Positions 3,001-32,209 of a DNA stretch of 64,000 nt are shown piece after piece. Source of the DNA: an uncultured Chitinophaga sp. GTDB taxonomy: Bacteria; Bacteroidota; Bacteroidia; NS11-12g; UBA955. The stretch covers positions 8,416 through 72,415 of the forward strand of contig CAYTMQ010000011.1 of the NCBI GenBank assembly GCA_964438995.1, in the 5' to 3' direction. The notes under the pieces are model-generated. The model saw nothing but the letters and a program-made list of their open reading frames with translations. It had not been told where the DNA came from and ran no database searches. Made by a program: the position numbers and the translations under genes. Every line of letters begins with the position of its first letter. Within the stretch, counting starts at the first letter, position 1.

Positions 3001-3693
3001 AGACAGCAAACTTAGAATATATGTATTTGGACCTAATAACTGAGCCTGTTAAATCCATATCGGTGGTCATATATTGGAAGGTCTCACCTTTCTTAAGTGT
3101 AATTTGGAATGGGACTCCTGCGACACTAAATCTCGACGAGGCCCCAGTTGGTACTATTTCTATAACAGAAGAATCTGCAATTCCAACAATTGTAAATTCA
3201 GGTGATTGCAAATTTTTACCATTGCAATACCAACCCCAATTGTAATTGTCTTGGTAGGTGGTTATGAAATATTCTGGAGAATACACAATTGACGTAGTAG
3301 GAATGACTACTGTAGCTCCTTTCGACCACCAATATCTGTTTACTGCGTAAACGTTTATTGCAGTATCAGCAGTTATATGAACACCATTGGTGGTTACAGA
3401 ATCTGAATAACGACAAACAACCTCACGCGGCAATCGAACCATTTTAGTGATATTGGGTTGTAATGTTACCGATGTACTAAAACTTTGCCCCGGAGCAGTA
3501 ATTGACACATTAGCAGCGTATTGAGAAGACAAAAACAGCTCAGCTGTATCGTTGTTGTAATAATAGTTGTTGTAATAACAACCCCAATCTTGAGCCATAA
3601 AAGCAACCCAAAAATCCTTACCTGCAGTACCTTGAGCGCTTAATTTTAAGCCACTTAAACTCAAAAATAGGAAAAATAAGATAATGCGTTTCA
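1..3693 (-). CDS. Giant secreted adhesin-like protein with PKD/Ig-like repeats, partial (the C-terminus lies beyond the window start). Start codon at 3693, N-terminal signal peptide MKRIILFFLFLSLSGLKLSAQG
   Basis: Uninterrupted minus-strand reading frame across 1..3693 that I translated by hand. It contains at least 8 tandem ~80-90 aa modules with the recurring DTQC / W-x-F-G-D PKD-type motif. An ATG with a good signal peptide lies at 3693. The six-frame track omits it because the ORF is open at the window edge. Confidence 0.6.
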
Positions 3694-3802
3694 TGTTTAA
3701 TCTTGAGTTCATATAAGGTTTTTATCTATAAAATCGTTAATTTTGCACAAATTTAAGTATTTTTACTTAATTCCAAAACTATTATTTTAACAATTCGATA
3801 AG

Positions 3803-4381
3803 ATGAAAACTGCCAGTTCGTACGCCAAACAAATATTTTGTATTGAAGGAGATTGGCACCCTGATTTACGTCAGAAAGACACCATCGAGAATGCGTTAAA
3901 ATTTATGGAGACAGCCAGTGGTATGAAAATTAAATACATCCACAGACATTGCAGTACTTCTCACGAATTACAAAACAGAATTGAAGAGTACAGCAAAAGG
4001 CGTTACGACCAGTTTAGCATCTTTTATTTGGCCTTTCATGGCGTTCCGAATGGTTTGAAACTTAGTCAGAAGAACATACTCTCACTTGATGAGTTAGCCG
4101 AAATGGCAGAAAACAAACTCCAAAACAAGATTTTACACCTTGGCAGTTGCGAAACTTTAAACGTTAGCAAACATCAAATAAAAAAATTCTTAAGACAGAC
4201 TGGCGCTTTATGCGTAAGCGGCTTCAAAAAAGAAGTTCCATTCGTGAGTTCAACCATTTTCGACGTTTTGTACTTCGAGATGTGCCAATACTACAAACAA
4301 ATGCACATCATCGAAAAGCATATGAAAAACTACTATGGCAAATTGATGAAAGAGCTTCAATTCGTAATGGTTTACGAGTAA
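3803..4381 (+). CDS. Hypothetical 192 aa protein with a caspase-like (clan CD, peptidase C14-like) His/Cys dyad arrangement
   Basis: Hydrophobic strand + HG (SIFYLAFHG, His79) and hydrophobic strand + SC (KILHLGSCE, Cys116) align with the caspase SHG ... QACRG topology. The N-terminal strand IFCIEGDW resembles the caspase beta1 strand. No signal peptide. Confidence 0.45.
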   Translation: MKTASSYAKQIFCIEGDWHPDLRQKDTIENALKFMETASGMKIKYIHRHCSTSHELQNRIEEYSKRRYDQFSIFYLAFHGVPNGLKLSQKNILSLDELAEMAENKLQNKILHLGSCETLNVSKHQIKKFLRQTGALCVSGFKKEVPFVSSTIFDVLYFEMCQYYKQMHIIEKHMKNYYGKLMKELQFVMVYE

Positions 4382-4394
4382 AAACCCAACTTTC

Positions 4395-4461
4395 AACCTG
4401 TACATTTCAACCTTGTAAGGTTGATTTCCTGAAATTTTCAACCTTGTAAGGTTGACGACCT
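4395..4461. repeat. REP-like palindromic repeat cluster: partial copy plus two copies of CAACCTTGTAAGGTTG at 31 bp spacing, ending GACGACCT
   Basis: Copies at 4408-4423 and 4439-4454, terminal ACGACCT 4455-4461. Lies between convergent gene ends. Confidence 0.6.
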
Positions 4462-4474
4462 CCGATGTTGAAGA

Positions 4475-6673
4475 TTACAAATTGGTTTCTAAATACTTGG
4501 TAATTTTAGTGAACAAATGCAACCTGGTTTTGCCGCCTGCAATACCGTGGTTTTTGTTTGGATAATATTCGGCGTCATAAGCAATGTTCTTATCGTTCAT
4601 AGCTTTTACCATTTCGGCAGCATTCTGGAAATGCACATTGTCGTCGGCCGTTCCATGTATGATCAAATAATTGCCTTTAATTTTGTCGACATGCGACAAT
4701 GGTGAGTTGTTATCGTATCCCAATGGATTTTCATTAGGTGTGCGCATGTAACGTTCAGTATAAATATTGTCGTAAAACCTCCAATTGGTTACTGGTGCCA
4801 CAGCTACGGCAGTTTTAAAATAATCTGCTCCTCTTGTAATACAGTTACTGGCCATAAATCCGCCATAACTCCATCCAAAAATTCCGATTCTCTTACTATC
4901 AACATAAGACTGTGAGCCGAAGTACTTAGCTGCTTCAACATAATCTTTGGTCTCTAAATTTCCCAAATTTAAGTAAGTCATTTTCTTAAACTCCTCTCCT
5001 CTACCACCACTACCTCTATTATCAACGCTAATCACTATATAACCCTTAGCTGCCATGTATTGGTACCACAAATAATTTGCTCCTCCCCACTGATTTTTCA
5101 CAGTTTGGTAACCAGGACCGCCATACACAAAAAACAGCACAGGATATTGTTTGCTCGCATCAAAGTTTGGAGGTAAAATTTTCCAATAATCCAACTTCAC
5201 ATTTTCAGTCGTTGTAAAGCTTCCAAATTCTACCTGACCTAAATTCAATGTTGCTAATTTATCTTTTAAAGCTTTGTTATCTTCCAAAACCCTTATAACC
5301 ATGCCAGCTGCATCTTTTATAGCAAAAACAGCCGGATTGGTTAAAGTACTGTAATTGTCAACAAAAAACTCGAAACTGCTATTAAAACTAATGGTATGCC
5401 AACCTTTCTCAGTGGTAATTTGTTTCATTTCACCAGTTTTTACATTAACCGAAAACAACTGCCTTTCTGAAGGATTGTCTTTACCTGAAGTGAAATAGGC
5501 TAATCCATTGTTGTATCCGTTCACAACATCAATTTCCCAATCTCCTTTTGTTAATTGAGTAACTTTATATCTCGAATTCATGGCATATAAATGCTTATAT
5601 CCACTTGCTTCTGATGTAAACAAGGCTATAACATTGGTATCTTCACCATTGGTGTAAGTCCAATCTTCTATTTCTATGTAGTACTTATTAGTTTCAGTGT
5701 ATATCACTTCAGCTTTGTTGTAGAAATAAGAAAATCTCAATACTTCCAATTTGTTTTGCAATCTATTTAAACGCTGAACTGACAAGAAGTTTTGACTCAT
5801 CCATTTAATTCTTGGTAAATATTGATCGTTTTGCGAACCAGTCTCGCAGTAGACATCTTTTTTCTTTCCAATTTTGTGGATGAAAACATCAACCTTACTA
5901 TTAGGCTCGCCGGCTTTAGGGTACTTCCAAGTTTCTTTTTTGGGATACAAATCGCCATACAAATCCATGCTGAAATACGGCACCTTTGATTCATCAAACT
6001 TATAATAGGCAATAAACTGCCCATCAGGACTCCATTCGAATCCTCTGCTCATGCTAAATTCCTCTTCATATACCCAATCTACAGCTCCATTGATGATGTG
6101 GTTTTTTTCTCCATCTTTAGTAATTTGGATGTCTTTCTTTTTAATGACATCATAATAAAACAAGTTGTTATCACTCACATATGCCACTTTGGTAGCATCC
6201 GGACTTAGAGTCGCATACATGATTTTCTTATTAGAGATTTTCACCAAGTTGCCAGTTCTTATATCGTACAAGTACACATTACTTTTTCCACTGTGACGGT
6301 AAACCGATTCAAAGCCATTGGTGATCAAAACTTTCGTTTCATCTTGACTGAAGGCATACGATTCAATCTGAATTGGCATTGAATCAACCAAAATCTTATC
6401 CGTAGAGAACAACGTACTCAATTTATTACCTGTTTTAAAATCATATCTGTTACAGGCTCTTGATTTATCAGGATTGGCGTCTAATTGACAATATGATTTT
6501 CCATCGTTTAAAGAATTAAATCCAGGAACAAACTTAGAAGCGAATTCTCTGCTGTTCCAAATGTTTTCAAGACTTAATTGAGCCGATGCTTCTCCAATTA
6601 ATAAGCTGAATATGGCAATGATTAACACTCTCATAATCGGCAAAAATACATAAAAATACTTGGGTTCAATCAT
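4475..6673 (-). CDS. S9B family peptidase, dipeptidyl-peptidase IV-like
   Basis: N-terminal signal peptide, long beta-propeller region, catalytic GWSYGG Ser motif, downstream IHGTADDNVHF (Asp/His of the triad). 732 aa. Confidence 0.85.
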   Translation of the reverse strand: MIEPKYFYVFLPIMRVLIIAIFSLLIGEASAQLSLENIWNSREFASKFVPGFNSLNDGKSYCQLDANPDKSRACNRYDFKTGNKLSTLFSTDKILVDSMPIQIESYAFSQDETKVLITNGFESVYRHSGKSNVYLYDIRTGNLVKISNKKIMYATLSPDATKVAYVSDNNLFYYDVIKKKDIQITKDGEKNHIINGAVDWVYEEEFSMSRGFEWSPDGQFIAYYKFDESKVPYFSMDLYGDLYPKKETWKYPKAGEPNSKVDVFIHKIGKKKDVYCETGSQNDQYLPRIKWMSQNFLSVQRLNRLQNKLEVLRFSYFYNKAEVIYTETNKYYIEIEDWTYTNGEDTNVIALFTSEASGYKHLYAMNSRYKVTQLTKGDWEIDVVNGYNNGLAYFTSGKDNPSERQLFSVNVKTGEMKQITTEKGWHTISFNSSFEFFVDNYSTLTNPAVFAIKDAAGMVIRVLEDNKALKDKLATLNLGQVEFGSFTTTENVKLDYWKILPPNFDASKQYPVLFFVYGGPGYQTVKNQWGGANYLWYQYMAAKGYIVISVDNRGSGGRGEEFKKMTYLNLGNLETKDYVEAAKYFGSQSYVDSKRIGIFGWSYGGFMASNCITRGADYFKTAVAVAPVTNWRFYDNIYTERYMRTPNENPLGYDNNSPLSHVDKIKGNYLIIHGTADDNVHFQNAAEMVKAMNDKNIAYDAEYYPNKNHGIAGGKTRLHLFTKITKYLETNL

Positions 6674-6768
6674 CCGTTTTTAAATAGAGATGATTCATTA
6701 CTTTGAACGTATTTTTGCAGAAACGTAACAAATTGAGAAATTTTGCGTTCTAAAAGTAATCAACAAGT

Positions 6769-8406
6769 ATGAAACGCTTAATAGTATTGGTATTGCTCTA
6801 TCCTTTACTCTCTTGGTCACAAACAGAGGATAAGTCTATCTTACCAGAAAATTTCCACAAAATCAGCTCCTCTAAATTGGATATGAAATATTTAGATGGC
6901 AGCTATATAGTGCTTGAAATGGGCTTTAATGGCTCTATTCCCAAAAACAAACTTGAAAAAATTCAGCCGCAAAACATTGAATCCATCACACTTGCTTATT
7001 CTCGCTATCGCTTAAGCGAATCTTTCGACCAAAATGCGCTCAACATGCAGCGTATGCAGAAACTTTATGAGCAAATTCCTGGTATTAAGAAAAACAAAAA
7101 CATCAATTGGTTTTGGGTAGAACAAACTGGTTGCAAAGAAGCAGAAGCTTGTAAAGATTATTTCCATGGCTTCATCATCACCCTAAAAAGCGATGAAATG
7201 CGTTTGTATAAAGAAACAGAAATTGCATTGTTAGATTATTACAGTAGCATTTACGAAGGGATGATTGATCCTAGAAAAATGGACTCATTGATTAGCACTG
7301 GAAAATTACCTTATGTTAAAAAATGTGATACCATGACTTTGAGAACGCCCATTAGAGGCAATAAACTACCAAAGGTAAAGGGATGGGACCGCGAGAACAA
7401 TGATGTATTGGCCAAACTTCTCAAAACCGAACTCGACAATCAAGATACCATCAATTTCCAAGCCTATTTAAACGATGAAGGTGATTTTTTAAGTTACGAG
7501 TCAGAACTTACTTTCATCAAAGAAAAACGCATCACCCGCTTCTTAAAAAACAATTTAAAAGTGAGTCCTGGTAAATATGAAAAACAAAAAGTAGCCTCAA
7601 AAGTGTATGTGACTCTTTTCAAAAATAAATCAGGTTATAAAATCAACTTTAAAGCATTTCCTTATGATGAAAGTGATGGAGAATACGATGTCGACAAATT
7701 CTTATACGTTAGCAAGCTCCAAACTGTATGCGACTATTTAGACACAAGTGCATTAAAAGTTTCAAGCACTTTGTTGTCAAATACACAAGATGTGGTTATT
7801 AAGGTATTTGAAAGGAATAAAGACTGGAAAAATTGTTTGGTAGCTACTGATGTTACCGCAAGTATGTATCCATATTTAGCCCAATTTCAAATGTGGCACA
7901 AACTGCATCTTGATCAGAATGCAGGGAATCACGATTTTATATTTTTCAATGATGGTGATAATTGTCCAGACATTATCAAAGTTGACGGCAATGTGGGCGG
8001 ATTGTATTACATCAATACTTCTAACTTCGAACAATTATCTATTACGATGAAAAAGGCGATGTTAAAAGGCAATGGAGGTGATAGACCAGAAAACAATATT
8101 GAAGCCGTTATTGAAGGACTTAAAAAGAATCCAAATATTAAAGAGGTTATAATGATTGCGGACAACTACGCTACACCTCGTGATATGGAATTATTAAAAC
8201 AAGTTAAAGTGCCAATTCACTTGATTCTTTGTGGTACTCAAAAAGGATTCAATCCAGAATACTTGAACATGATTAAAGTCAATAAAGGGACTCTTCATAC
8301 CATGGATCAAGACTTAACTGATTTATCCAAATTAAGTGAAGGTCAAACCATCAAAATTGACAACAAAATCTACAAAATTGTCAATGGCAAATTTGTTATG
8401 AAATAA
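6769..8406 (+). CDS. Secreted protein with C-terminal vWA-like domain
   Basis: Signal peptide MKRLIVLVLLYPLLSWSQ. MIDAS-like D-x-T-x-S (ATDVTASM) and downstream GGDRPEN / VIMIADN segments typical of the vWA fold. Confidence 0.55.
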   Translation: MKRLIVLVLLYPLLSWSQTEDKSILPENFHKISSSKLDMKYLDGSYIVLEMGFNGSIPKNKLEKIQPQNIESITLAYSRYRLSESFDQNALNMQRMQKLYEQIPGIKKNKNINWFWVEQTGCKEAEACKDYFHGFIITLKSDEMRLYKETEIALLDYYSSIYEGMIDPRKMDSLISTGKLPYVKKCDTMTLRTPIRGNKLPKVKGWDRENNDVLAKLLKTELDNQDTINFQAYLNDEGDFLSYESELTFIKEKRITRFLKNNLKVSPGKYEKQKVASKVYVTLFKNKSGYKINFKAFPYDESDGEYDVDKFLYVSKLQTVCDYLDTSALKVSSTLLSNTQDVVIKVFERNKDWKNCLVATDVTASMYPYLAQFQMWHKLHLDQNAGNHDFIFFNDGDNCPDIIKVDGNVGGLYYINTSNFEQLSITMKKAMLKGNGGDRPENNIEAVIEGLKKNPNIKEVIMIADNYATPRDMELLKQVKVPIHLILCGTQKGFNPEYLNMIKVNKGTLHTMDQDLTDLSKLSEGQTIKIDNKIYKIVNGKFVMK

Positions 8407-11244
8407 TTACTTTTTAGTTTTAAAATTTCTAATTGAATATGTAAAAGTCAACATGTAAAATCTGGTTAAGATTTTGGTTTCTTTATCTTCAATATAATTT
8501 TCAGTTACTGTTCTGCTAATGCTATTGTTCTTTTTCAAAGCATCAAATACTGAGATTTTCAACTCTCCTCTGTTGTCTTTTAAAAATTTGTATCCAACAC
8601 CACCGTTCATAAGCCAAATACTTTGATTAAAACTTGCCCCCAATCCAGTGTATGAACTGTTGGTGATATCTGTATTGATGACCCATTTCGGTTTAGGCAT
8701 ATAGTTTAATTTAGCATTGAAGTTGGCTATCACATAAGAAGAGTTAGCTGTAGTTTGCAATGAATTTTCTACAATGTTATAGTTTAGGTTGTAACTGATT
8801 GTAAAGTCTAATTTCTCACTAAAATTACTAGCAGCCACGACACCTGCACTGGTATTGTAAGTGTTGCTATAATTCAATTGATTGTTGATGAATGCAGGCG
8901 ATTTGGTGTAAGTTTGACCCAAATTAAAATTGAAAGCTGATTTCAGTTTCTTTGATGGAATAGAATAGGTAAAGAACAATCTTGCATTTCTATATCCATT
9001 GATGTTTACTGGTAAATTCAATTGAGTACCTTGTCTTAATGATACAGAATCGCCATTTAACATGAATGTTGTATCAGTTTGAGCCAAAATATTATTATTC
9101 GCAATATAATTCGCAGTTGTTGCGATGTTACCAAATACGAAAAATGATTTACCTTTTAAATTGTAGCTATATCTCATAAACATTCTGTGAGACACTTCTT
9201 GTTCCAAATCAAGGTTACCTGAAGACAGAATCAATGGATTAGCATTATTGATCACATTTTGAAGTTGAGATATGCTAGGAATGTTAGCAGAACTTCTATA
9301 GTAGACCCTTAAATTTTTTGATTTAGAAGGTTGATACGTCAACATAGCATTAGGTAAAATGTTGTCGAATGTTCTATTGACAAGGTTGTTTCTCGGGAAT
9401 GTTTGGTCGCCTTCTAAAGCAACTGATTGTGCATTGGCGCCAATATTAAATGAGAATTTTTCAGATTTATATCGATAAGTTGCTCCAGCTCTTTGAGTAG
9501 TGGTTGTATTATCAAAAGTGTTACTCAATAGGCTATCAACTATACTGAATGTTTCTGTTGCTGTGTCCAATCTTTGAGTATACTTAAGCGACTTACTTCT
9601 GGTGAATTGAGGATTGTAAGTAATTTCTACCGTTGATTTCTTTTTAATTGGATGTGTATATGAAAGATTAGGATTAAAATCGTTGGATTTATTGCTTTGA
9701 TCGGCTTGTTGTTTGAAATTGCTTAAAAAGTAATTGGGCTCGTAATATGAGTTATTAGATTGCAACTCTGTGAGTCCTTCACTTAAACTGAGTGTATGCG
9801 AAAGATTCAATGAAATGGTCTGTCCCGGCTTTTTAAATCTATGTCTTAACAACAAATTGTTACTGATGTTGTATCCATCGCTGTTTGAATTTGTATTGCT
9901 AGATGAATTGTTTATGGTATCGAACAACTGCGTTTTGGTAATCCCATTAAAATATGAATTACTATTTCCATTTTGAAATCTTAACGAAGGCGTATAGATA
10001 ATTGAATTATTACTATCAATATTGTATTCCAATCTGGCGTTAAATCTGTGACTATTGGAGTTAGATTTAGATGTATCGGCTTGTGAATACAATTGATTAT
10101 TGATTGAACTTAAGAAATAGGTTCTATTAAGAAAAGAAGCAGAATTATTAACCCCATTATTGAAGAAATAACTTGCTGTTATCTTCATTTTTTTTATGCC
10201 AATTGCAGAGTAGTTAAAGCCAAATGAATTGGTTGTATTAATTCCTCCTTGTTGATTGACAAGGAAATTTCCCATATCTCCGCCACCGAATCCACCAGGA
10301 CCGCCTCTATTTGGTCCGCCGCCACCTGGACGCCCCATACCTTGCATACCACCTCCAGAAGCACTCTGACCCAGAGCGCCTAAAATATCGCTGCTTGTAA
10401 AATTTTGTTGATTGATGTTGTTGGTCAGACCTATTACAGAAAACCTTGTTTTACCATTGAAATAATTGACATTTCCTCCCCCAGCCCATCGATTGTTGGT
10501 TCCATAACCACCATAAATTTTTCCGAATTGACCGTTGTTCTTTCCAGATTTGGTTACGATGTTCAAGGTCTTTTGAGCATTTCCATCGTCAACACCAGAA
10601 AAAGATGCTTGGTCGCTAGCCCTGTCATACACTTGAATTTTATCGACGATTTCGGCAGGTAAATTTTTCAAAGCAGCTGCGGCATCGCTACCGAAGAATT
10701 CCTGACCATCGACAGTAACTTTTTTGACCTCTTCACCATGTGCTTTTATAGTTCCATTTTCGTTGGTAATACCCGGCATTTTAGTAACTAGATTTTCGGC
10801 AGTAGCGTCAGGATTAACCTTGTAACTGCCAGCGTTAAATTCAACGGTATCATTTTTTTGAGTGGCTTGTTCTTTTCTGAATGTCACGCCAGCACCCTTA
10901 AAATTTTTGATTTCTTCTCCCAGTTGTATTTCTTTTCTAATTACAGCACCTGAATCGATATTCAAATTGAAATACTGTGTTTCAAATTTGTAAGATGACA
11001 CTTTGAGAAGAAAGTTTCCCTTTCCAAAATTGACCATCCTAAACCTACCCATAGAGTCAGAATAAGTCGAACGTGTTATAGACGAATCTGGCAGAGTATA
11101 AAGGGTAAGAGCCACACCTTGAACACCTTTATTGGTAAGATTGATGGTTCGTCCCATGATTGATTGAGCTTTAGTTTGGTTGACAAAAAACACAGAGATG
11201 CCCAAAAGGCAAAAAGTTGAAATTAAATAATTTTTTAAATACAT
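8407..11244 (-). CDS. Outer-membrane beta-barrel (TonB-dependent receptor-like) protein with N-terminal carboxypeptidase-regulatory-like domain and a Gly-rich insert
   Basis: Signal peptide. The N-terminal domain resembles the one in the 26395..28719 paralog. Long run of amphipathic beta strands with Y/F-rich C-terminus ending in F. Internal GGPGGFGGG low-complexity insert. 945 aa. Confidence 0.65.
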   Translation of the reverse strand: MYLKNYLISTFCLLGISVFFVNQTKAQSIMGRTINLTNKGVQGVALTLYTLPDSSITRSTYSDSMGRFRMVNFGKGNFLLKVSSYKFETQYFNLNIDSGAVIRKEIQLGEEIKNFKGAGVTFRKEQATQKNDTVEFNAGSYKVNPDATAENLVTKMPGITNENGTIKAHGEEVKKVTVDGQEFFGSDAAAALKNLPAEIVDKIQVYDRASDQASFSGVDDGNAQKTLNIVTKSGKNNGQFGKIYGGYGTNNRWAGGGNVNYFNGKTRFSVIGLTNNINQQNFTSSDILGALGQSASGGGMQGMGRPGGGGPNRGGPGGFGGGDMGNFLVNQQGGINTTNSFGFNYSAIGIKKMKITASYFFNNGVNNSASFLNRTYFLSSINNQLYSQADTSKSNSNSHRFNARLEYNIDSNNSIIYTPSLRFQNGNSNSYFNGITKTQLFDTINNSSSNTNSNSDGYNISNNLLLRHRFKKPGQTISLNLSHTLSLSEGLTELQSNNSYYEPNYFLSNFKQQADQSNKSNDFNPNLSYTHPIKKKSTVEITYNPQFTRSKSLKYTQRLDTATETFSIVDSLLSNTFDNTTTTQRAGATYRYKSEKFSFNIGANAQSVALEGDQTFPRNNLVNRTFDNILPNAMLTYQPSKSKNLRVYYRSSANIPSISQLQNVINNANPLILSSGNLDLEQEVSHRMFMRYSYNLKGKSFFVFGNIATTANYIANNNILAQTDTTFMLNGDSVSLRQGTQLNLPVNINGYRNARLFFTYSIPSKKLKSAFNFNLGQTYTKSPAFINNQLNYSNTYNTSAGVVAASNFSEKLDFTISYNLNYNIVENSLQTTANSSYVIANFNAKLNYMPKPKWVINTDITNSSYTGLGASFNQSIWLMNGGVGYKFLKDNRGELKISVFDALKKNNSISRTVTENYIEDKETKILTRFYMLTFTYSIRNFKTKK

Positions 11245-11347
11245 GTATGGGCGTTAGACAATGCAAATATAAAAAAGTTTAACGGCATATTTGTTTAAAC
11301 ATCAATTGGGTTAAAAAAGAGGGATGTAAGCAGCCAATGAACGAACT

Positions 11348-11402
11348 CCGACCTTACAAGGTTGGTTTTTCGATTTTTTCAACCTTACAAGGTTGACGAC
11401 CT
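11348..11402. repeat. REP-like palindromic repeat cluster: CGACCTTACAAGGTTGG plus CAACCTTACAAGGTTG-ACGACCT, 31 bp apart
   Basis: Copies at 11349-11365 and 11380-11395, tail 11396-11402. Divergent intergenic region. Confidence 0.6.
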
Positions 11403-11528
11403 ATATCGTTATTGATGGAAAAAATATCTATTTTCTACTTTCTTCATTAAAATTTAGTCTAATATTGCAGCGGTTTTTAAAACAGATAAGAACTTTATTT
11501 TACAACAATCCATTTAACCTTTATAACG

Positions 11529-12782
11529 ATGGCACATCAAGTGGTTATCATTGGCGCAGGATTCGCCGGCATACAATTAGCCAAAAATCTAAATTCTCCT
11601 GAATTTGACATTCTTCTGATAGACAAAATCAATCACCACCAATTTCAACCGCTGTTCTATCAGGTTGCTACCTCTCAAATCGAACCTTCTAGCATCTCCT
11701 TCCCTATCCGAAACATCTTTAAAAATCAAAACAACATTCAGATTAGGTTGGCTGAAGCCCGAAGCATCGACTCATCAAACAAAAAAATCATCACCGATAT
11801 TGGTGAATTTCCTTACGACTCACTGGTTCTAGCCATGGGATGCAAAACCAATTTCTTTGGAAATTCTGAAATAGAAAACAATGCCTTTACCTTGAAATCT
11901 ACTTCAGAGGCTATTAGCATTAGAAACCATGTTTTAACTACATTTGAAAAAATCATTTCAAGCAATCCCGACGAAAAAATGCCCTTGCTAAACTTGGTTA
12001 TAGTAGGCGCCGGACCAACAGGCGTTGAGCTCGCGGGAGCATTTGCCGAAATAAAACATCACATACTTCCAAAAGATTATCCAAAAATTGATTTTTCTAA
12101 ATTTAACATCACCATAGTTGAAGGCAGTAACCACACCTTAAACAACATGAGTGAAAAGTCTAAATTAGACTCAGAAAAATATCTTTTATCAATGGGTATC
12201 AATCTAATCAAATCAACTTTTGTCAAGTCGTACAATGGCCAAGTGCTCACATTAAGCAATGGCGACCAAATACTAACTAAAACAGTAATTTGGGCTGCCG
12301 GCGTTATTCCAAATACAATTGATGGTTTACCCCAAGAAAGTATAACACCTGGAATACGATTAATTGTAGACCGATACAACAAAGTCAACTTAACTGACCA
12401 TATTTACGCTTTAGGGGATATCGCTTATATGTCAACACCACTCTATCCTAAAGGTCACCCCCAAGTGGCGAATGTTGCGATCAATCAAGCCAAAAATCTG
12501 GCACGAAATTTAAAAAATGAACTAAGAGGTAAAACATTAAAGGAATACGAGTACAAAGACTTAGGCTCAATGGCAACAATTGGAAGAAATAAAGCGGTAG
12601 TTGACATTGGTAAATTTCACATCAGAGGCTATTTTGCATGGTTGATTTGGATGTTCTTACATCTGATGTTGATTTTAAGTGTTAAAAACAAACTGATCAT
12701 TTTCATCAACTGGGCTTGGGCTTACTTTACCAAAGATACCTCATTAAGATTGATACTGAAACCAAGCATTAAGAAGTCCTAG
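11529..12782 (+). CDS. ndh: Type II NADH:quinone oxidoreductase (NDH-2)
   Basis: Two Rossmann dinucleotide-binding motifs (VVIIGAGFAG and VIVGAGPTGVELAGA). The length and C-terminal hydrophobic membrane anchor are typical of NDH-2. Confidence 0.8.
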   Translation: MAHQVVIIGAGFAGIQLAKNLNSPEFDILLIDKINHHQFQPLFYQVATSQIEPSSISFPIRNIFKNQNNIQIRLAEARSIDSSNKKIITDIGEFPYDSLVLAMGCKTNFFGNSEIENNAFTLKSTSEAISIRNHVLTTFEKIISSNPDEKMPLLNLVIVGAGPTGVELAGAFAEIKHHILPKDYPKIDFSKFNITIVEGSNHTLNNMSEKSKLDSEKYLLSMGINLIKSTFVKSYNGQVLTLSNGDQILTKTVIWAAGVIPNTIDGLPQESITPGIRLIVDRYNKVNLTDHIYALGDIAYMSTPLYPKGHPQVANVAINQAKNLARNLKNELRGKTLKEYEYKDLGSMATIGRNKAVVDIGKFHIRGYFAWLIWMFLHLMLILSVKNKLIIFINWAWAYFTKDTSLRLILKPSIKKS

Positions 12783-12836
12783 TAATTTTTCGAAACACGT
12801 ATACAACTTTTGCTCTATTTGTTATATTTGTTGTAA

Positions 12837-13376
12837 ATGAAATTTTACATAGAGACAGAGCGATTGATTTTAAGAGATATACTTCCTGAAGACAGAAATG
12901 GCTTATTCGAACTAGATAGTGATCCTTTGGTTCATAAATACCTTGGAGGCAATACCATTTCCAAAATAGAAGAAGCAGATTTTGTGGTAGGTATTATTCG
13001 CGATCAGTACCAAAACAATGGTATTGGAAGGTGGGCTGTCATTGAAAAGGAAACTGGCAATTTCATAGGCTGGAGCGGACTAAAATTCATTACAGAAGAA
13101 GAAAACAAACGCGTAAATTTTTACGATGTTGGATACCGACTTATTCCCAAATACTGGGGCAAAGGCTATGCCACCGAATCGTGTAAAGCAGCATTAAAAT
13201 ATGGCTTTGAAAACATGCAACTCGATCAAATTGTCGGCACTGCAAATGAACTTAACTTAGCATCAAAAAGGGTATTAAGCAAGTGTGGGTTAGTTTACAA
13301 ATCTCAATTTATGTGGCAAGATATTACATGTGATTGGATGGAAATAGACAAAGAAGATTGGCTAAAATTACAATGA
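12837..13376 (+). CDS. GNAT family N-acetyltransferase (RimJ/RimL-like)
   Basis: Acetyltransf_3-like layout with conserved WAVIEKETGNFIGWSGL and GKGYATE acetyl-CoA binding segments. 179 aa. Confidence 0.7.
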   Translation: MKFYIETERLILRDILPEDRNGLFELDSDPLVHKYLGGNTISKIEEADFVVGIIRDQYQNNGIGRWAVIEKETGNFIGWSGLKFITEEENKRVNFYDVGYRLIPKYWGKGYATESCKAALKYGFENMQLDQIVGTANELNLASKRVLSKCGLVYKSQFMWQDITCDWMEIDKEDWLKLQ

Positions 13377-14014
13377 AAAATTTCTTTTTAATTTTCGCCT
13401 TATTATTAACTAAGTGTTCACTTGGTCAAAATCCTTTTTTCAAATTAAATATCCAAAAGACCAATGCTTTTTATTACATCAAGCAACCTAGTTATGGGCA
13501 TTACACCCAAAACTATTTTTTATTGAATGGATTTCTAGATGTCTCATTAGAAAAACGATTTTCAGATGACAACTATATAGGGATTGGCCTCAACTATCAG
13601 GGCAGAATCTATGATCTGAATATTTCAAATTCAGGCGTTAACGAATTATATAAATCCCATTTTACTAGTTCACTATTTTCATATTATCTCAAGTTCAATT
13701 TTCCCATTGATTCAGGTAAACATTCCAATACATACTTAAGCTTTGCGGGCTATATGACTAAAACATATAACGATAAAACAGATTATTACAATGATACTAT
13801 ACCGCCTAATAATTATACATTAAAAAACAGAATGAATGGCGAACAATATACGTCCTTCTCACCAGTTATCGGCATCAACAACGAATATCGATTGGGTAAT
13901 TTTGTCTATTTTAAATCAGGATTAGAGTTTATTCCAGCCTATGGGAATAGCGGATTGTATAAAAACAATTCAAGATTATCATTAAACATTGGCATCCAAT
14001 TAAGGATTTATTAA
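13373..14014 (+). CDS. Hypothetical secreted protein (start refined to MKNFF, which overlaps the upstream stop as ATGA)
   Basis: The track's longest ORF starts at 13334, but the internal Met at 13373 gives a clean signal peptide (MKNFFLIFALLLTKCSLGQ) and the ATGA stop/start overlap with the GNAT gene. Aromatic-rich, ends in Y, so possibly a small beta-barrel. Confidence 0.5.
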   Translation: MKNFFLIFALLLTKCSLGQNPFFKLNIQKTNAFYYIKQPSYGHYTQNYFLLNGFLDVSLEKRFSDDNYIGIGLNYQGRIYDLNISNSGVNELYKSHFTSSLFSYYLKFNFPIDSGKHSNTYLSFAGYMTKTYNDKTDYYNDTIPPNNYTLKNRMNGEQYTSFSPVIGINNEYRLGNFVYFKSGLEFIPAYGNSGLYKNNSRLSLNIGIQLRIY

Positions 14015-14053
14015 AGGTTTAAAAAACTTAGAAGGTTTCCAAACTGTGCATTC

Positions 14054-14172
14054 CAACCTTACAAGGTTGTCGTAACAATCTAAACCAACCTTACAAGGTT
14101 GTCGAAATGATCCAAACCAACCTTACAAGGTTGTCGTAACGATCCAAACCAACCTTACAAGGTTGCCGACCT
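14054..14172. repeat. REP-like tandem array: four copies of CAACCTTACAAGGTTG with 32 bp period and near-identical 16 bp spacers, ending CCGACCT
   Basis: Copies at 14054-14069, 14086-14101, 14118-14133, 14150-14165. Spacers tcgtaacaatctaaac / tcgaaatgatccaaac / tcgtaacgatccaaac. Abuts the LysR stop codon. Confidence 0.65.
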
Positions 14173-15094
14173 AGTACTTTTCGTACCAGTCGAAGTTGGA
14201 TTTTACTATGCGGTTTTTTTCGACGGTGATGTAGTCGATAAAGGATTGGGCTGCTGCTGTGTGTTTTTTACCTTTTAACCAGATTAGACTCCAAGTTGTT
14301 TTAATGGGCAATCCTTTCATTGGAATGATGGACAATTCGTTGTTGTGCAATTCATTTCTAATCCCAATCAATGGCATAATAGAGTATCCTAAACCAGCTA
14401 AAATGGCCTGCTTAACGGCTTCATTGGATGTTAATTCCATTTTGCGATCAATATCGAAACTGCTCTTCTCTATAAACTTCTCCATAACAGTTCGTGTTCC
14501 AGAACCGCGCTCTCTAAAGATAAAAGGCAAACCATTGATCTCTTCTTTGGTTAGTCCAGTTTTCTTAAGCTTGGGATTCATCTTACCAACCATGTACAAT
14601 TTGTTTTGTAACAAGTCGATTTTCTTAATGTTAAAATTGTTGGGCACTATAGATACCAAAGCAAAGTCGACCTCGTTATTCTCAAGACTCTCTACCACCT
14701 TTTGTTTGTTGGTTACATCCATTATCAAATCAATACTCGGATTCTTATTGATAAATCCCGATAAATAATATGGCATGATGTATTGACCAGTCGAGACTAT
14801 AGAAATTTTAAGTTTTCCAAACAACTTGCCTTTGTACTCCAAAGTTCGGTAGTTGATGTTGTATACTTCCTCTAAAATTCTTTCTGCTGATTTGGCTATC
14901 TCTTTACCAAAGTCGGTAATATAAATTTTCCTACCCACAACCTCTGTCAAAGGAATATCAAACTGATCTTGAAAGTTTCTCAACTGAATAGACACTGCAG
15001 GTTGAGTCAAATTAAGCTCTTCTGCAGCCTTAGTAACACTCTCTGTTTGCACTATCTTTAAGAAGATTTGCAACTGATTTAATGTATAATTCAT
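14171..15094 (-). CDS. LysR-family transcriptional regulator
   Basis: N-terminal wHTH (LNQLQIFLKIVQTESVTKAAEELNLTQPAVSIQLRNFQ) plus a substrate-binding domain. Divergent from the efflux operon. Confidence 0.85.
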   Translation of the reverse strand: MNYTLNQLQIFLKIVQTESVTKAAEELNLTQPAVSIQLRNFQDQFDIPLTEVVGRKIYITDFGKEIAKSAERILEEVYNINYRTLEYKGKLFGKLKISIVSTGQYIMPYYLSGFINKNPSIDLIMDVTNKQKVVESLENNEVDFALVSIVPNNFNIKKIDLLQNKLYMVGKMNPKLKKTGLTKEEINGLPFIFRERGSGTRTVMEKFIEKSSFDIDRKMELTSNEAVKQAILAGLGYSIMPLIGIRNELHNNELSIIPMKGLPIKTTWSLIWLKGKKHTAAAQSFIDYITVEKNRIVKSNFDWYEKY

Positions 15095-15564
15095 AAAATA
15101 TATTTATATTATATATAACAATGTTTCATACAAATTAACAACAATGTTGTATGAAATTTGCAGCGTTTAAAATTAAATAATTTAAAAATCGATTGTAACC
15201 TTACTCTAACAATGCTTTACACAATTTTTACTTAAAACCAACTTAAAAAGAACTTAAAAAAAACTTAAGAACAAAATTAACAAAAACAATTCAAATAAAA
15301 AAATAATTTCTATTAAATATTTTAATGTATTATTTTTTTATCATTGAATTAATTAATATATAAAATGCAATATTTTAAAACATCAATATCGACTAATTCA
15401 ACTACATATCTCTAAATAACAACAAATTACAAATAATAAAATAACATTTTCACCAACAATATACAAAATCTAGACAAAATAACTATTTATAAAATCACTC
15501 AAATCAATTGAACTTTTTTAACAAAAAACAACACCAATAACTTAAAAATAAAAAATACGCGGAA
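15095..15564. promoter_or_regulatory. Extremely AT-rich 470 bp divergent intergenic region between the LysR gene and the RND efflux operon, with reiterated AACTTAAAAA / AAYTTAAG motifs
   Basis: Direct reading: aacttaaaaagaacttaaaaaaaacttaagaacaaaattaacaaaaacaattcaaataaaaaaa. No ORF. It is positioned as a shared control region with LysR box-like A/T tracts. Confidence 0.4.
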
Positions 15565-16647
15565 ATGAAACGAATTAATTTTTTGATCATCATTGGGCTA
15601 ATCATCTCTTTAGCCTCTTGTTCATCAAAGCACGAAGAAGACAAAGAAAACATCAAATTCACAGCTACTTCCCCCCTTCTAACTGACACCTCTATCATCA
15701 GAAATTATGTCTGCCAGATTCACGCCATTCAACACATTGATATCAGAGCGTTAGAAAAAGGGTATCTCGAAAAAATATACGTAGACGAAGGTCAACACAT
15801 CAAAAAAGGTCAGTTAATGTTTCAAATCATGCCTTTGATCTACAATGCAGAACTTCAAAAATCACAAGCAGAAGCCGATTTCGTAGAGATAGAATACAAA
15901 AACACCAAATTACTCTATGAAAAAAATGTGGTATCAGCCAACGAACTAGCCCTTGCTAAAGCAAAACTTGAAAAAGCGAAAGCCGAACTTAAACTGGCTC
16001 AAACCCACTTACTATTCACCGAAATTAGAGCGCCTTTTGATGGCATTATGGACCATTTTCAAGTGAGATTGGGTAGCCTAGTAAACGAAGGCGATTTGCT
16101 TACAACACTTTCAGACAACAGTCAGATGTGGGTGTATTTTAATGTTCCTGAAGTTGAATACCTCAATTACAAACTCAACACTACTAAAGAAAATTTTAAC
16201 AATGTACAACTACTAATGGCAAACAATCAACTGTTCAATCATAATGGTAGTGTTAAAACCATAGAAGCCGACTTCAACAATGAAACTGGTAATATCCAAT
16301 TCAGGGCTACTTTCCCTAATCCTGAAGGCTTGCTTAGACATGGAGAAACTGGCAATATTCAAATGGCCATTAACTTGAAAGATGCCATCATCATTCCTCA
16401 AAAATCTACTTTCGAAGTACTAGAGAAACGTTATGTTTTTGTAATTGACAAAGACAATGTTGTACACTCAAAAGAAATCAATGTGGCGGCTGAGATGCCC
16501 GACCTGTACATCATCAAAGATGGCTTATCTAAAGATGATAAAATTATGTTAGAAGGCATCAGAAAAGTAAAAGATGGCGATAAAATTTCTTACACCTTCG
16601 AAAACCCTAAAGATGTAATCCCAAAACTTAAAGTTTACGTAGAGTAA
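15565..16647 (+). CDS. Efflux RND transporter periplasmic adaptor (HlyD/MFP family), lipoprotein
   Basis: Lipobox LASC, coiled-coil hairpin and beta-barrel domains of MFPs. 1 bp gap to the downstream pump gene. Confidence 0.85.
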   Translation: MKRINFLIIIGLIISLASCSSKHEEDKENIKFTATSPLLTDTSIIRNYVCQIHAIQHIDIRALEKGYLEKIYVDEGQHIKKGQLMFQIMPLIYNAELQKSQAEADFVEIEYKNTKLLYEKNVVSANELALAKAKLEKAKAELKLAQTHLLFTEIRAPFDGIMDHFQVRLGSLVNEGDLLTTLSDNSQMWVYFNVPEVEYLNYKLNTTKENFNNVQLLMANNQLFNHNGSVKTIEADFNNETGNIQFRATFPNPEGLLRHGETGNIQMAINLKDAIIIPQKSTFEVLEKRYVFVIDKDNVVHSKEINVAAEMPDLYIIKDGLSKDDKIMLEGIRKVKDGDKISYTFENPKDVIPKLKVYVE

Positions 16648-19600: not shown

Positions 19601-19861
19601 TTGATACCATTGGTTATTTCGCATGGAGCAGGAGCAATAGGTAATAAAACAATTGGTTCATCTGCCTTAGGAGGTATGTTATTCGGTACCATATTCGGTG
19701 TCATCATTGTACCTGGCTTGTATTACATCTTTGGCACTTGGGCTCAAGGTCGTAAGCTCATCAAAAATGAAGACGAAAATTCACTAACTGAAGATTTGGT
19801 TCACCAAATGGACAAATTCCCACAATCAACCGATTCTAGTCATGATTCAACAAACATTTAA
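16649..19861 (+). CDS. RND efflux permease (AcrB/MexB-like, HAE1 family)
   Basis: 1070 aa, 12-TM architecture with two large periplasmic loops, and conserved N-terminal MFSKFIQRPVLA and TM4 VVDDAIVVVE motifs. Confidence 0.9.
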   Translation: MFSKFIQRPVLAIVISLTILFIGGLAIKTLPTSQFPEVAPPVVMVSASYPGASAKSLAESVIIPLEQSINGAWGMRYMTSDATSAGEANIQVVFEPGTDINQALVQVSNRVQQVTNRLPILVQREGVVITPVIPSMLMYVNLYSKDKNSDMKFLFNYAGVNMVPEIQRINGVGQVRILGSRQYAMRIWLNPDRMRAYNVSPDEVMEALSDQSIIGKPGRIGRGDSKQAEALEYVLTYNDRYNDPTQYDNVIIRANSNGENLRLKDIATVSLGSEYYDIYSNMNGHPSAAMVIKQTYGSNASDVIKQVKDKLEVLKKSFPPGMEYEISYDVSNFLDASIDNVIHTLRDAFILVALVVFIFLGDWRSTLIPTLAVPISLIGAFFFIQLFGLTINMVTLFALVLAIGIVVDDAIVVVEAVHAKMEEEHLSPYNAVRKVIGEISGAVIAITLLMVSVFIPVSFMTGPVGTFYRQFSITMASSIVLSGIVALTVTPVLCAMILKNNHGKPRKKTWMNRFLDKFNHLFERLTGKYVWLLKLIAHRRIITVAMFTIFSLGILGVSKMLPSGFIPSEDQGMLYAIIQTPPGSTLERTNDLSNKLVEVIRKVDGVKSVSSIAGYEVLTEGRGSNAGTCLINLKPWSERDKDITEIIEELEEKAKEIPGATIEFFDPPAVPGFGAAGGFALQLLDKTNTGDLMELEKVKNEFMRELEKRKELTGLFTFFSANYPQYEIEIDNQAAMQKGVTIGNAMNTLSIFVGSTYELGFIKYQRFFKVFVQASPEFRKLPTDIMNLYVKNNKDEMVPFSAFMRIKKKQGANEINRYNMYNTAAIRGGPANGYSSGEAIDAVKEVAAKTLPHGYDIDWAALSYDETRRGNEAIYIFIIVLIFVYFVLAAQYESFIIPLAVVLSLPAGVFGSFLMIKGMGLANDIYAQVGLVMLVGLLGKNAVLIVEFAVQKHHQGATILEAAIEGAKVRFRPILMTSFAFIAGLIPLVISHGAGAIGNKTIGSSALGGMLFGTIFGVIIVPGLYYIFGTWAQGRKLIKNEDENSLTEDLVHQMDKFPQSTDSSHDSTNI

Positions 19862-32133: not shown

Positions 32134-32209
32134 TGGTTGCGAATATCGGACTCGAACCGATGAACTTCTGGTTATGAGCCAGACGAGATACCAACTTCTC
32201 TAATTCGCA
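32134..32209 (-). tRNA. tRNA with CAU anticodon (elongator tRNA-Met, or tRNA-Ile2 if lysidine-modified), 76 nt with encoded CCA
   Basis: Hand-folded cloverleaf: acceptor TGCGAAT/ATTCGCA 7 bp, D-arm GAGA-AGTTGGTA-TCTC, anticodon arm TCTGG-CTCATAA-CCAGA, variable AGTTC, T-arm ATCGG-TTCGAGT-CCGAT, discriminator A, CCA. U1-A72 is paired, so it is not an initiator. Confidence 0.85.

What the first reader, a model, noticed from the sequence alone, without database searches (positions are those of the whole stretch)
4395..14172. Host-specific palindromic intergenic repeat family (CAACCTT-RY-AAGGTTG) arranged in 31-32 bp periodic arrays that always end G-N-CGACCT
Three intergenic loci (4395-4461, 11348-11402, 14054-14172) carry two to four copies of the same 16 bp near-palindrome at fixed 31-32 bp spacing with similar spacers and a conserved terminal motif. 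The longest has four units directly abutting the LysR stop codon. This looks like a REP/BIME-type element family (stem-loop or dimeric-protein site) rather than a CRISPR array, because the spacers are near-identical. The copies sit at convergent gene ends (terminator or mRNA-stabiliser role) and at one divergent promoter region.
Basis: seen in the sequence. Interest (0 to 1): 0.5.

Follow-up and report, generated by a model that had tools for sequence, protein, structure and literature searches.

The report
REP-like palindrome arrays with cognate transposase
The repeated 16-base palindromes are real and are most likely a lineage-specific family of REP-type "junk-or-domesticated" hairpin repeats, because in a sister species the very same repeats flank a REP-associated tyrosine transposase gene sitting at one of the three loci; this is a new example of a known kind of bacterial repeat, not a new kind of system.

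Summary
Observation confirmed. Eight copies of CAACCTT-RY-AAGGTTG lie in three intergenic spacers at periods of 31, 31 and 32 bp (0.33 expected by chance). Each array ends G-N-CGACCT.

Interpretation largely supported. A sister species (Logan run DRR666272, 79-85% nt identity) has arrays at all three orthologous spacers. At locus 2 it also has an intact 233-aa Y1/HUH transposase. That protein matches Pfam Y1_Tnp and the NCBIfam REP-associated tyrosine transposase model. It has HUH and Y---NP motifs, and its best fold match is E. coli TnpAREP (4ER8). The same palindromes flank the gene on both sides.

The true unit is 31 nt: the 16-nt palindrome plus a ~15-nt tail (nnGACCTRTACcaTT). Relatives of the transposase in other Bacteroidota carry their own flanking hairpins, several with the same ACCT...AGGT core.

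No RAYT lies in this window. The prophage half of the window has no copies. The nearest non-sister relative (80% NDH-2) lacks the arrays.

Genome-wide copy number could not be measured. Arms and the 15-nt spacing are perfectly conserved between species while spacer sequence is scrambled, so a host-level role in phased protein binding or as a 3'-end hairpin remains open.

The parts
4395..4470 (+). Array 1. Contents: a partial degenerate unit (TTCAACCTGTA, 4395-4405); unit w1a 4408-4423; a 15-nt spacer; unit w1b 4439-4454; the tail start ACGACCT 4455-4461. The tail start is also the left arm of a decayed unit CGACCTCCGATGTTG (4456-4470). The array fills the 93-nt spacer between the DUF6642 stop (4381) and the DPP-IV stop (4475).
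   Evidence: The sister species has CAACCTTATAAGGTTG plus a decayed CAACCTCAGATGTTG at the orthologous place. As RNA the two units pair into an 18-bp hairpin (-27.3 kcal/mol, z -4.8). As ssDNA the value is -13.4 kcal/mol, z -6.0.
11349..11410 (+). Array 2. Contents: unit w2a CGACCTTACAAGGTTG (11349-11364, arm variant A2G); a 15-nt spacer; unit w2b (11380-11395); the tail ACGACCTATATCGTT (11396-11410). It lies between the divergent OMP_b-brl_3 (start 11244) and NDH-2 (start 11529) genes, upstream of both conserved Bacteroidota-type -7 boxes.
   Evidence: In the sister species this spacer holds three units plus the RAYT gene plus one more unit. The A2G variant of the first unit is shared by both species. 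The last unit, its tail and the NDH-2 promoter region align at 86%.
14023..14173 (+). Array 3. Contents: a degenerate unit at 14023-14038; four exact units at 14054, 14086, 14118 and 14150 with 16-nt near-identical spacers (32-bp period); the tail start CCGACCT (14166-14172). The last bases of the tail start form the LysR stop codon (14171-14173, - strand).
   Evidence: The array is identical in a second sample (L002). The sister species has five units here with a 31-bp period, unrelated spacers, and about 30 nt more between the array and the LysR stop. RNA fold of the - strand gives -48.9 kcal/mol, z -3.8.

Best explanation
The three loci are head-to-tail arrays of a 31-nt REP-type element. 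Each unit is a 16-nt near-perfect palindrome, CAACCTT-RY-AAGGTTG, which as single-stranded DNA forms a 7-bp stem (the arms plus the flanking base pair) with a 4-nt loop. It is followed by a ~15-nt tail with consensus nnGACCTRTACcaTT.

The family belongs to an uncultured Bacteroidota lineage and is the cognate repeat of a class-2 Y1/HUH transposase (RAYT / TnpAREP type). That gene is present in the sister species at locus 2 and absent from this window.

Inferred mechanism, by analogy with E. coli TnpAREP and IS200/IS605 TnpA:
- The transposase binds the hairpin on single-stranded DNA at the replication fork.
- It uses a conserved flank as its guide or cleavage site. Here that is probably the GACCT of the tail, which is kept only in array-terminal units.
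- It then cuts and rejoins, which seeds units at new intergenic sites.

The arrays then grow and shrink locally by slippage or unequal exchange of the 31-32-nt unit; array 3 shows this directly. Because the unit is its own reverse complement, two neighbouring units can also pair into a 16-18-bp REPIN-like hairpin.

A likely secondary effect at the two convergent gene ends, inferred and not shown, is that the transcribed arrays act as 3'-end hairpins that stop or protect transcripts. A more distant relative has an ordinary bidirectional terminator at one of these positions.
For: Shown:
- The repeat is real and non-random.
- All copies are intergenic.
- The sister-species contig L067 carries a 233-aa ORF in the locus-2 spacer. 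It scores 27.8 bits against Pfam Y1_Tnp, above the cutoff of 23. It matches NCBIfam NF047646 'REP-associated tyrosine transposase' at E 4.9e-11 over model positions 7-146 of 146. It matches PDB 4ER8 TnpAREP over the catalytic-Tyr helix.
- In a 21-sequence alignment N52-H53-F54-H55 (HUH) and Y147...N151-P152 are invariant. Y---NP is the class-2 signature in PMC6006769.
- The AlphaFold model has pLDDT 88.9. Its best Foldseek match is 4ER8_A at E 4.7e-9, ahead of the IS608 and ISDra2 TnpA structures.
- The gene is flanked by the same units: one 3' of it (L067 37-52) and three 5' of it (957, 988, 1019), each side ending NNGACCTATACCATT.
- Arrays occupy all three orthologous spacers in both species.
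- Relatives of the transposase carry flanking hairpins. L071 has GACCTTCAAGGTT, as an inverted doublet on one side and a single copy on the other. L072 has TACCTGGAAGGTA in 18-nt tandem at both contig ends. L068 has CCTGTAAGGTTGAATACCTATATC. F. aestivum has 2+2 copies of an unrelated 27-nt palindrome.
- The arrays are absent from the orthologous spacers of the 80%-identity relative L056, which has a canonical bidirectional terminator after DPP-IV.
- There are no copies in the 33-kb prophage half of the window.
- A JGI contig has CAACCTTACAAGGTTG-T-CGACCTTGTAAGGTCG, a second palindrome type with a compensatory A>G / T>C change.
- Single units and doublets fold far better than shuffles, both as ssDNA and as RNA.
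Against: - No RAYT gene or remnant lies in the window. No protein at least 90% identical to the sister-species RAYT was found in any sample that holds the host. The host arrays may therefore be orphans.
- Genome-wide copy number is unknown. Every copy seen lies in the same ~10-kb neighbourhood in the two species, apart from single contigs elsewhere.
- There is no GTAG or consistent CGTC tag.
- The units flanking the RAYT have the same tail direction on both sides rather than being inverted.
- Arms (14 of 14 positions in 16 of 18 units) and the 15-nt spacer length are perfectly conserved across species while spacers are scrambled. This looks more like in-situ selection on a phased binding site than like a decaying selfish repeat.
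- The RAYT-bearing contigs come from a metagenome run, so assigning L066 and L067 to one genome is an inference.
Confidence: 0.78

Rival explanations
1. The arrays are phased binding-site arrays for a dimeric host DNA-binding protein, either a regulator or a nucleoid-organising factor. On this reading the transposase association is secondary or coincidental.
For: - The unit is a 16-bp palindrome with strictly conserved arm sequence rather than only conserved pairing.
- The period of 31-32 bp equals three helical turns.
- Spacer length is invariant (15 nt in 8 of 8 heterogeneous spacers) while spacer sequence is free.
- Arrays with the same arms, taCAACCTTWWAAGGTTGta at a 29-bp period, lie in the SatD-DUF3307 spacer of 14 Ignavibacteriota genomes and 1 Solibacteraceae genome. 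That pattern looks like an operator.
- Array 2 lies upstream of two divergent promoters.
Against: - Two of the three arrays sit between convergent stop codons, and one overlaps a stop codon.
- The neighbouring genes are functionally unrelated.
- The 226-aa protein next to array 3 is not SatD.
- The same units flank a RAYT gene, and RAYT relatives carry related hairpins.
- The search that found the Ignavibacteriota arrays was conditioned on these arms, so sharing them carries little weight.
- Array copy number and spacers differ freely between species.
Confidence: 0.1
2. The palindromes are the subterminal hairpins of an ordinary autonomous IS200/IS605-type insertion sequence. On this reading the window arrays are solo ends left by excisions or deletions.
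For: - A Y1 transposase gene is bounded by the hairpins on both sides.
- The window lacks the gene at the same site, as after an excision or deletion.
- The fold also matches the IS608 and ISDra2 TnpA structures.
Against: - The protein has the class-2 Y---NP signature, not the class-1 Y---Q signature.
- Its best profile and fold matches are TnpAREP.
- The exact protein was seen on only one contig, and its nearest relative is 42% identical. That does not fit a multi-copy IS.
- Hairpins occur as arrays of 2-5 at sites without any gene, conserved in position across species.
- There is no TnpB or other passenger gene.
Confidence: 0.07
3. The hairpins are transcription terminators or 3'-end stabilisers that arose and were duplicated in situ. 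They have no mobility and no functional link to the transposase.
For: - Two of the three arrays fill the whole spacer between convergent genes, and no canonical terminator is present there.
- Relative L056 has a canonical bidirectional terminator at the DPP-IV end.
- The arrays form stable RNA hairpins on both strands.
Against: - The same exact 16-mer at three unrelated loci, plus around a transposase gene, cannot arise independently.
- Most units are not followed by a U-tract.
- Array 2 lies upstream of both promoters and is probably not transcribed (inferred from the conserved -7 boxes).
- This reading may still be true as a secondary, exapted role.
Confidence: 0.05

Closest known systems
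REP / BIME / REPIN elements with their RAYT (TnpAREP) transposase, as in E. coli and Pseudomonas (PDB 4ER8; Nunvar 2010; Bertels & Rainey 2011; PMC3116915)
   Same: - Short extragenic palindromes occur singly and in clusters, mostly at gene 3' ends.
- The cognate Y1/HUH transposase gene is itself flanked by the repeats.
- Doublets can form a long hairpin.
- The repeat sequence is lineage-specific and absent from recently acquired DNA.
   Different: - The unit is shorter: a 16-nt near-perfect palindrome with a 7-bp stem.
- There is no 5' GTAG. The conserved flank is a 3' tail starting NNGACCT.
- Clusters are strict head-to-tail arrays at a 31-32-bp period, not alternating orientations with defined linkers.
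- The flanks of the RAYT have the same tail direction.
- Copy number is unknown.
Bacteroidetes TnpAY1 subclass 2.6 (RAYT group 5) with 'atypical secondary structures' (Quentin et al. 2018, PMC6006769)
   Same: - The host phylum is the same.
- The genes are flanked by weak, non-GTAG hairpins that recur elsewhere in the genome.
- The protein has the Y---NP motif and a C-terminal SS motif.
   Different: The motif set here is NHFH, (L)FQ/FR instead of WQ, and Y[VI]H[LA]NP. By that paper's table this fits subclass 2.1, with NH[YF]H, FQ and Y[IV]HLNP, better than subclass 2.6. The authors found no REP-like sequences for subclass 2.1. Subclass membership could not be tested without their profiles.
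GTAG- and CGTC-tagged REP super-families (Di Nocera et al. 2013, PMC3733652)
   Same: - Both are stem-loop repeats with a short unpaired flank.
- Both lie downstream of coding regions and include clustered forms reiterated in tandem.
- CGTC repeats have been reported in Bacteroidetes.
   Different: - Neither tag is consistent here: rc-strand CGTC is present in only 3 of 18 units.
- Head-to-tail dimers are reported as absent or negligible in those families, whereas here they are the only arrangement.
- CGTC repeats have no associated transposase, whereas this family has one.
   Same: Both are 16-bp palindromes repeated at about three helical turns, with sequence-specific conservation of the arms.
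   Different: Operators sit upstream of one defined gene family and occur once per genome. These arrays sit mostly between stop codons of unrelated genes and around a transposase gene.

Membership tests
REP / REPIN-RAYT system | Short (about 20-40 nt) imperfect palindrome able to form a stem-loop | tested here: met
   The palindrome is 16 nt. As ssDNA it forms a 7-bp stem with a 4-nt loop, -5.2 kcal/mol, z -4.5 to -4.8. This is at the short end of the known range; 5-13-bp stems are reported in PMC3733652.
REP / REPIN-RAYT system | Extragenic location | tested here: met
   All 8 units in the window and all 10 in the sister species lie in intergenic spacers. Only the last 2-3 bases of one tail overlap a stop codon.
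REP / REPIN-RAYT system | Many dispersed copies per genome (tens to hundreds) | not testable with these tools
   The host genome is not in the species-representative collection as an array-bearing contig and is not in the JGI metagenomes. Only about 30 kb of host chromosome was available: 3 of about 13 spacers carry arrays. The one indirect hint is that a k=31 contig ends exactly in a unit (L066); L001 also ends inside array 3, but that is explained by the array's own near-identical 32-nt units.
REP / REPIN-RAYT system | A cognate RAYT gene flanked by the repeats | tested here: met
   Met in the sister species (L067: one unit 3' of the gene and three units 5' of it). Not met in the window itself, where no RAYT was found.
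REP / REPIN-RAYT system | Flanking repeats or doublets in inverted orientation (REPIN) | tested here: inconclusive
   Judged by the tail, the units on both sides of the gene and within the arrays are head-to-tail. Because the unit is self-complementary, neighbours still pair into a 16-18-bp hairpin.
REP / REPIN-RAYT system | Conserved 5' GT[AG]G guide tetranucleotide at the hairpin foot | tested here: not met
   No GTAG or GTGG lies next to the stem. The conserved flank is 3' NNGACCT, 7 of 7 in terminal units. Non-GTAG REPs are already accepted for subclasses 2.6 and 3 (PMC6006769).
RAYT / TnpAREP (class 2 TnpAY1), for the sister-species protein P0131 | HUH motif, catalytic Tyr in a Y---NP motif, Y1_Tnp fold | tested here: met
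   NHFH at residues 52-55 and YVHANP at 147-152 are invariant across 21 homologues. Pfam Y1_Tnp scores above its cutoff. The NCBIfam RAYT model matches at E 4.9e-11 but below its equivalog cutoff. The top Foldseek hit is 4ER8_A, E 4.7e-9, TM 0.67 on the target.
RAYT / TnpAREP (class 2 TnpAY1), for the sister-species protein P0131 | Single copy per genome, vertically inherited | not testable with these tools
   The exact protein was seen on one contig only, and its nearest relative is 42% identical. No complete genome was available.
CRISPR array | Repeats of 23-50 nt with unique spacers of similar length, usually with cas genes | tested here: not met
   The repeat is 16 nt. The 15-16-nt spacers are decayed or duplicated copies of one tail. 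No cas genes lie in the window.
Intrinsic terminator | G+C-rich stem followed by a T/U run | tested here: not met
   Only 2 of 8 units (11348, + strand; 14101, - strand) pass a lax terminator scan. Most units have no T-run.

The most novel reading that the evidence does not exclude
A large Bacteroidota clade of Y1 transposases has the motif signature of TnpAY1 subclass 2.1 / RAYT group 1, the group reported to have no associated REPs. On this reading the clade does have cognate repeats: very short ACCT...AGGT hairpins arranged head-to-tail. In this lineage the arrays would have been retained at fixed intergenic positions since before speciation, with selection on arm sequence and on a three-helical-turn phase. 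That would make them domesticated, phased protein-binding or 3'-end elements rather than mere transposon debris.
Probability: 0.2. Interest if true: 0.5.

Novelty: new member of a known kind. Interest (0 to 1): 0.35.

Why it matters
REP/RAYT systems have been studied almost entirely in Proteobacteria. Well-documented Bacteroidota examples are scarce and are described only as 'atypical secondary structures'.

This locus gives a clean, compact example:
- a defined 31-nt unit;
- its transposase;
- a filled versus empty transposase site in two sister species;
- orthologous arrays that allow turnover to be separated from selection.

It is also a practical annotation point. These arrays probably break short-read assemblies. 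They can be mistaken for CRISPR-like or regulatory repeats. They replace ordinary terminators at some gene ends. None of this overturns current understanding.

Tried and rejected
- Rfam found no family at any array. The only gathering-score hit in the window is the tRNA, and nothing scored E<=1 in 4200-14400. The Ignavibacteriota array gave only sub-threshold noise.
- A full-text search for the 14-mer core found no paper.
- Viral contigs hold only 36 singleton chance matches to the unit and none to unit plus tail. Plasmids gave no match to a consensus triplet. The prophage half gave no nucleotide match in the phage collection, only distant protein matches to Flavobacterium phages.
- The genome-contig scan for two units 5-35 nt apart returned only the SatD-DUF3307 arrays of Ignavibacteriota and one Solibacteraceae genome, not the host.
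- The first JGI metagenome scan for doublets found nothing. The second, for unit plus tail, found two contigs. L064 is convincing. L065 is possibly a chance match, and its neighbours are uninformative.
- I tested whether the 226-aa protein upstream of array 3 is a SatD-like binder, by analogy with Ignavibacteriota. It is not: it has a signal peptide and no similarity.
- Walking outward from the window ends gave only the giant T9SS adhesin gene on the left and more prophage on the right, with no further host spacers.
- The LysR operator and HipB operator ideas were dropped. The arrays lie at the 3' end of lysR and far from hipBA.

Full report
**1. The observation**

The window contains exact or 1-mismatch copies of CAACCTT-RY-AAGGTTG at 4408, 4439, 11349, 11380, 14054, 14086, 14118 and 14150. 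Allowing two mismatches gives 9 matches against 0.33 expected, and no shuffle reaches 9. The periods are 31, 31 and 32 bp, and TRF independently reports the 32-bp array. Each array ends AAGGTTG-N-CGACCT. A 3-mismatch fifth unit sits 31 nt upstream of array 3, at 14023, and a partial unit precedes array 1. The arrays are identical in independent Logan assemblies of the same organism.

**2. Context**

Array 1 fills the 93-nt gap between the convergent DUF6642 and DPP-IV genes. Array 2 lies between the divergent OMP_b-brl_3 and NDH-2 genes. Array 3 lies between a signal-peptide protein and LysR, whose stop codon overlaps the terminal motif.

The window has 35.6% G+C. Positions 30.6-64 kb are a prophage: an integrase lies next to tRNA-Met, followed by an M15 peptidase and large proteins distantly similar to Flavobacterium phage proteins. 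The prophage contains no copy of the repeat. No Rfam family matches the arrays.

**3. Distribution**

The organism is an uncultured Bacteroidota. The exact NDH-2 protein occurs only in NCBI and Logan records of this organism, and the next relatives are 80% identical or less.

- A scan of 185,579 species-representative genomes for two units 5-35 nt apart did not find the host or any Bacteroidota.
- A scan of the JGI metagenomes for doublets found nothing.
- A scan for unit plus tail found two contigs. One reads CAACCTTACAAGGTTG-T-CGACCTTGTAAGGTCG. This shows that the 'terminal CGACCT' can be the left arm of a second palindrome type carrying a compensatory A>G / T>C change.
- Viral and plasmid collections hold nothing relevant.

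The family is therefore rare and lineage-restricted.

**4. The key result**

Cluster members at least 90% identical to window proteins led to two contigs from run DRR666272. They are 79-85% identical to the window at nucleotide level, which indicates a sister species.

- L066 (OMP to DPP-IV) ends exactly in a unit, CAACCTTATAAGGTTG, 35 nt past the DPP-IV stop.
- L067 has five units at the orthologous locus 3. The period is 31 nt, the centres are GT, AC, AT, GT, AC, and the spacers are unrelated to those of the window.
- In the OMP/NDH-2 spacer L067 has three units plus an intact 233-aa gene on the minus strand, followed by one more unit.

That protein (P0131) passes the following tests:
- It passes the Pfam Y1_Tnp cutoff (27.8 bits against 23).
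- It matches NCBIfam 'REP-associated tyrosine transposase' end to end at E 4.9e-11, although below the equivalog cutoff.
- It aligns to E. coli TnpAREP (4ER8) over the catalytic helix.
- In an alignment of 21 homologues it keeps an invariant N-H-F-H and Y...NP. Y---NP is the class-2 (TnpAREP) signature of Quentin et al. 2018.
- Its AlphaFold model (pLDDT 88.9) has 4ER8_A as best PDB match (E 4.7e-9), ahead of the IS608 and ISDra2 transposases.

The window has no trace of this gene. From the last unit to the NDH-2 start the two species align at 86%. The difference between them is the presence or absence of the gene cassette and of one unit.

**5. Anatomy of the element**

I aligned all 18 units from both species.
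- Thirteen of the 14 arm positions are invariant. Position 2 is G instead of A in the first unit of locus 2, and this is so in both species, which shows that those two units are orthologous.
- The centre is always R-Y (AT, AC or GT), one transition away from a perfect palindrome.
- The following 15 nt are decayed copies of one tail, nnGACCTRTACcaTT.
- GACCT is kept in 7 of 7 array-terminal units but has eroded in internal ones.

All eight heterogeneous internal spacers are exactly 15 nt. The three 16-nt spacers of window array 3 are near-identical to one another, which points to a recent local duplication of a 32-nt unit. The abutment to the LysR stop codon is specific to this strain: the sister species has about 30 nt more there.

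A single unit as ssDNA folds to a 7-bp stem with a 4-nt loop (-5.2 kcal/mol, z about -4.6). Neighbouring units pair into 16-18-bp hairpins (ssDNA -13.4 kcal/mol, z -6.0; RNA -27.3 kcal/mol, z -4.8). The head-to-tail doublet is thus structurally equivalent to a REPIN.

**6. The transposase clade and its repeats**

P0131 is a divergent member of a large family. There are 8,112 representatives at E<=1e-3 and 1,292 at E<=1e-10, and the nearest is 42% identical. Most named members are Bacteroidota or Flavobacterium 'transposase' or 'RayT'.

Where flanks could be read, the gene is bracketed by hairpin repeats:
- GACCTTCAAGGTT, as an inverted doublet upstream and a single copy downstream, in L071.
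- TACCTGGAAGGTA in 18-nt tandem at both ends of the 958-nt contig L072.
- A half unit plus tail, CCTGTAAGGTTGAATACCTATATC, in L068.
- Two plus two copies of an unrelated 27-nt palindrome in F. aestivum.

Three of the four closest relatives thus share the ACCT...AGGT core with the window repeat, as expected if the enzyme and its hairpin co-evolve.

**7. Comparison with relatives that lack the repeat**

The relative with 80% NDH-2 identity (L056) keeps the gene order but has no palindromes in either orthologous spacer. It has a canonical bidirectional terminator after DPP-IV. In the window no canonical terminator exists at either convergent site. A terminator or 3'-protection role for the arrays is therefore plausible but only inferred.

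Array 2 lies upstream of both conserved Bacteroidota-type -7 boxes: TATATTTG on the minus strand for the OMP gene and TAATATTG for NDH-2. Both are conserved in the relatives. An RNA role therefore cannot be general.

**8. Interpretation**

The best reading is a REP-type family with a cognate RAYT, organised as head-to-tail arrays (confidence about 0.78).

The points that do not fit the textbook REP are:
- no GTAG;
- a very short stem;
- strict head-to-tail phasing;
- the same tail direction on both sides of the RAYT;
- no RAYT in this strain;
- unknown copy number.

Perfect conservation of arms and of the 15-nt spacing across species, against scrambled spacers, is not explained by passive decay. 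It points either to continued RAYT-dependent renewal or to selection for a phased duplex-binding or hairpin function. That keeps a protein-binding-array rival alive at about 0.1.

The rival gains some colour from arrays with the same arms in the SatD-DUF3307 spacer of Ignavibacteriota. That search was conditioned on these arms, however, and the gene contexts are unrelated.

**9. Novelty**

REP/RAYT systems are well known, and Bacteroidetes RAYTs with atypical non-GTAG hairpins have been described (PMC6006769). This is a new member.

A modest extra point concerns the motif set of this clade: NHFH, FQ, Y[VI]HLNP and SS. By the published table it matches subclass 2.1 / group 1, for which no REPs were found, better than subclass 2.6. 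I could not test that assignment.

Interest is moderate to low: 0.35.

Noticed in passing
L039-L053 (for example L053 3457-3501, L045 3985-4087, L041 1724-1797): Fourteen Ignavibacteriota genomes and one Solibacteraceae genome each have one locus with 2-4 tandem copies of taCAACCTT(TT/AA)AAGGTTGta at a 28-29-bp period. Wherever both sides could be read, the array lies between a SatD-family gene (weak C-terminal HTH matches) and a DUF3307 gene. It looks like a conserved operator array and matches no Rfam family.
   Followed up: partly
window 30658-64000 (continuing in L057/L058): This region is a prophage. A tyrosine integrase (30658-31791) lies beside tRNA-Met (32134-32209). It is followed by an M15 peptidase and a run of large proteins with no Pfam hit, distantly like Flavobacterium psychrophilum phage proteins. 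Beyond the window it continues with RecT, an SMC-like ATPase, NinB, HNH genes and an S24 repressor. No copy of the palindrome occurs in it.
   Followed up: partly
L071 3001-3621: A 36%-identical homologue of the RAYT-like transposase sits between a cas9-like gene (HNH_4, RuvC_III) and cas1-cas2. Its own GACCTTCAAGGTT hairpins flank it.
   Followed up: no
L061 and L062 1-60 (about 2.6 kb left of the window start): Two independent assemblies both end in a short tandem repeat, AACCAATAACC-like with a period of about 8-10 nt. It lies just past the stop of the 2,091-aa T9SS (CHU_C) adhesin gene, whose 5' part occupies window 1-3712. This is a second, unrelated repeat that appears to break assemblies.
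   Followed up: no
window 23913-25582: A HipA-like kinase (436 aa) and an HTH_3 protein (121 aa) form a hipBA-type toxin-antitoxin pair next to a 426-aa protein with no family match.
   Followed up: no
window 15230-15317: An A-rich tandem repeat (ACTTAAAAAAA, about 5-6 copies) lies in the divergent spacer between lysR and the RND efflux operon (MFP 15565-16647, AcrB-like 16649-19861, OEP 19842-21278).
   Followed up: no
L056 17121-17449: The 80%-identity relative has a 150-nt tandem repeat (2-3 copies, 86-89% identical) in an intergenic region. It is unrelated to the palindrome family.
   Followed up: no
JGI contig of P0123 (no DNA available): In a closely related (>=90% LysR) JGI contig, lysR lies next to the Sbt_1 bicarbonate-transporter gene. 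In the window the three-gene RND efflux operon lies between them, so the operon may be an insertion or the neighbourhood has been rearranged.
   Followed up: no
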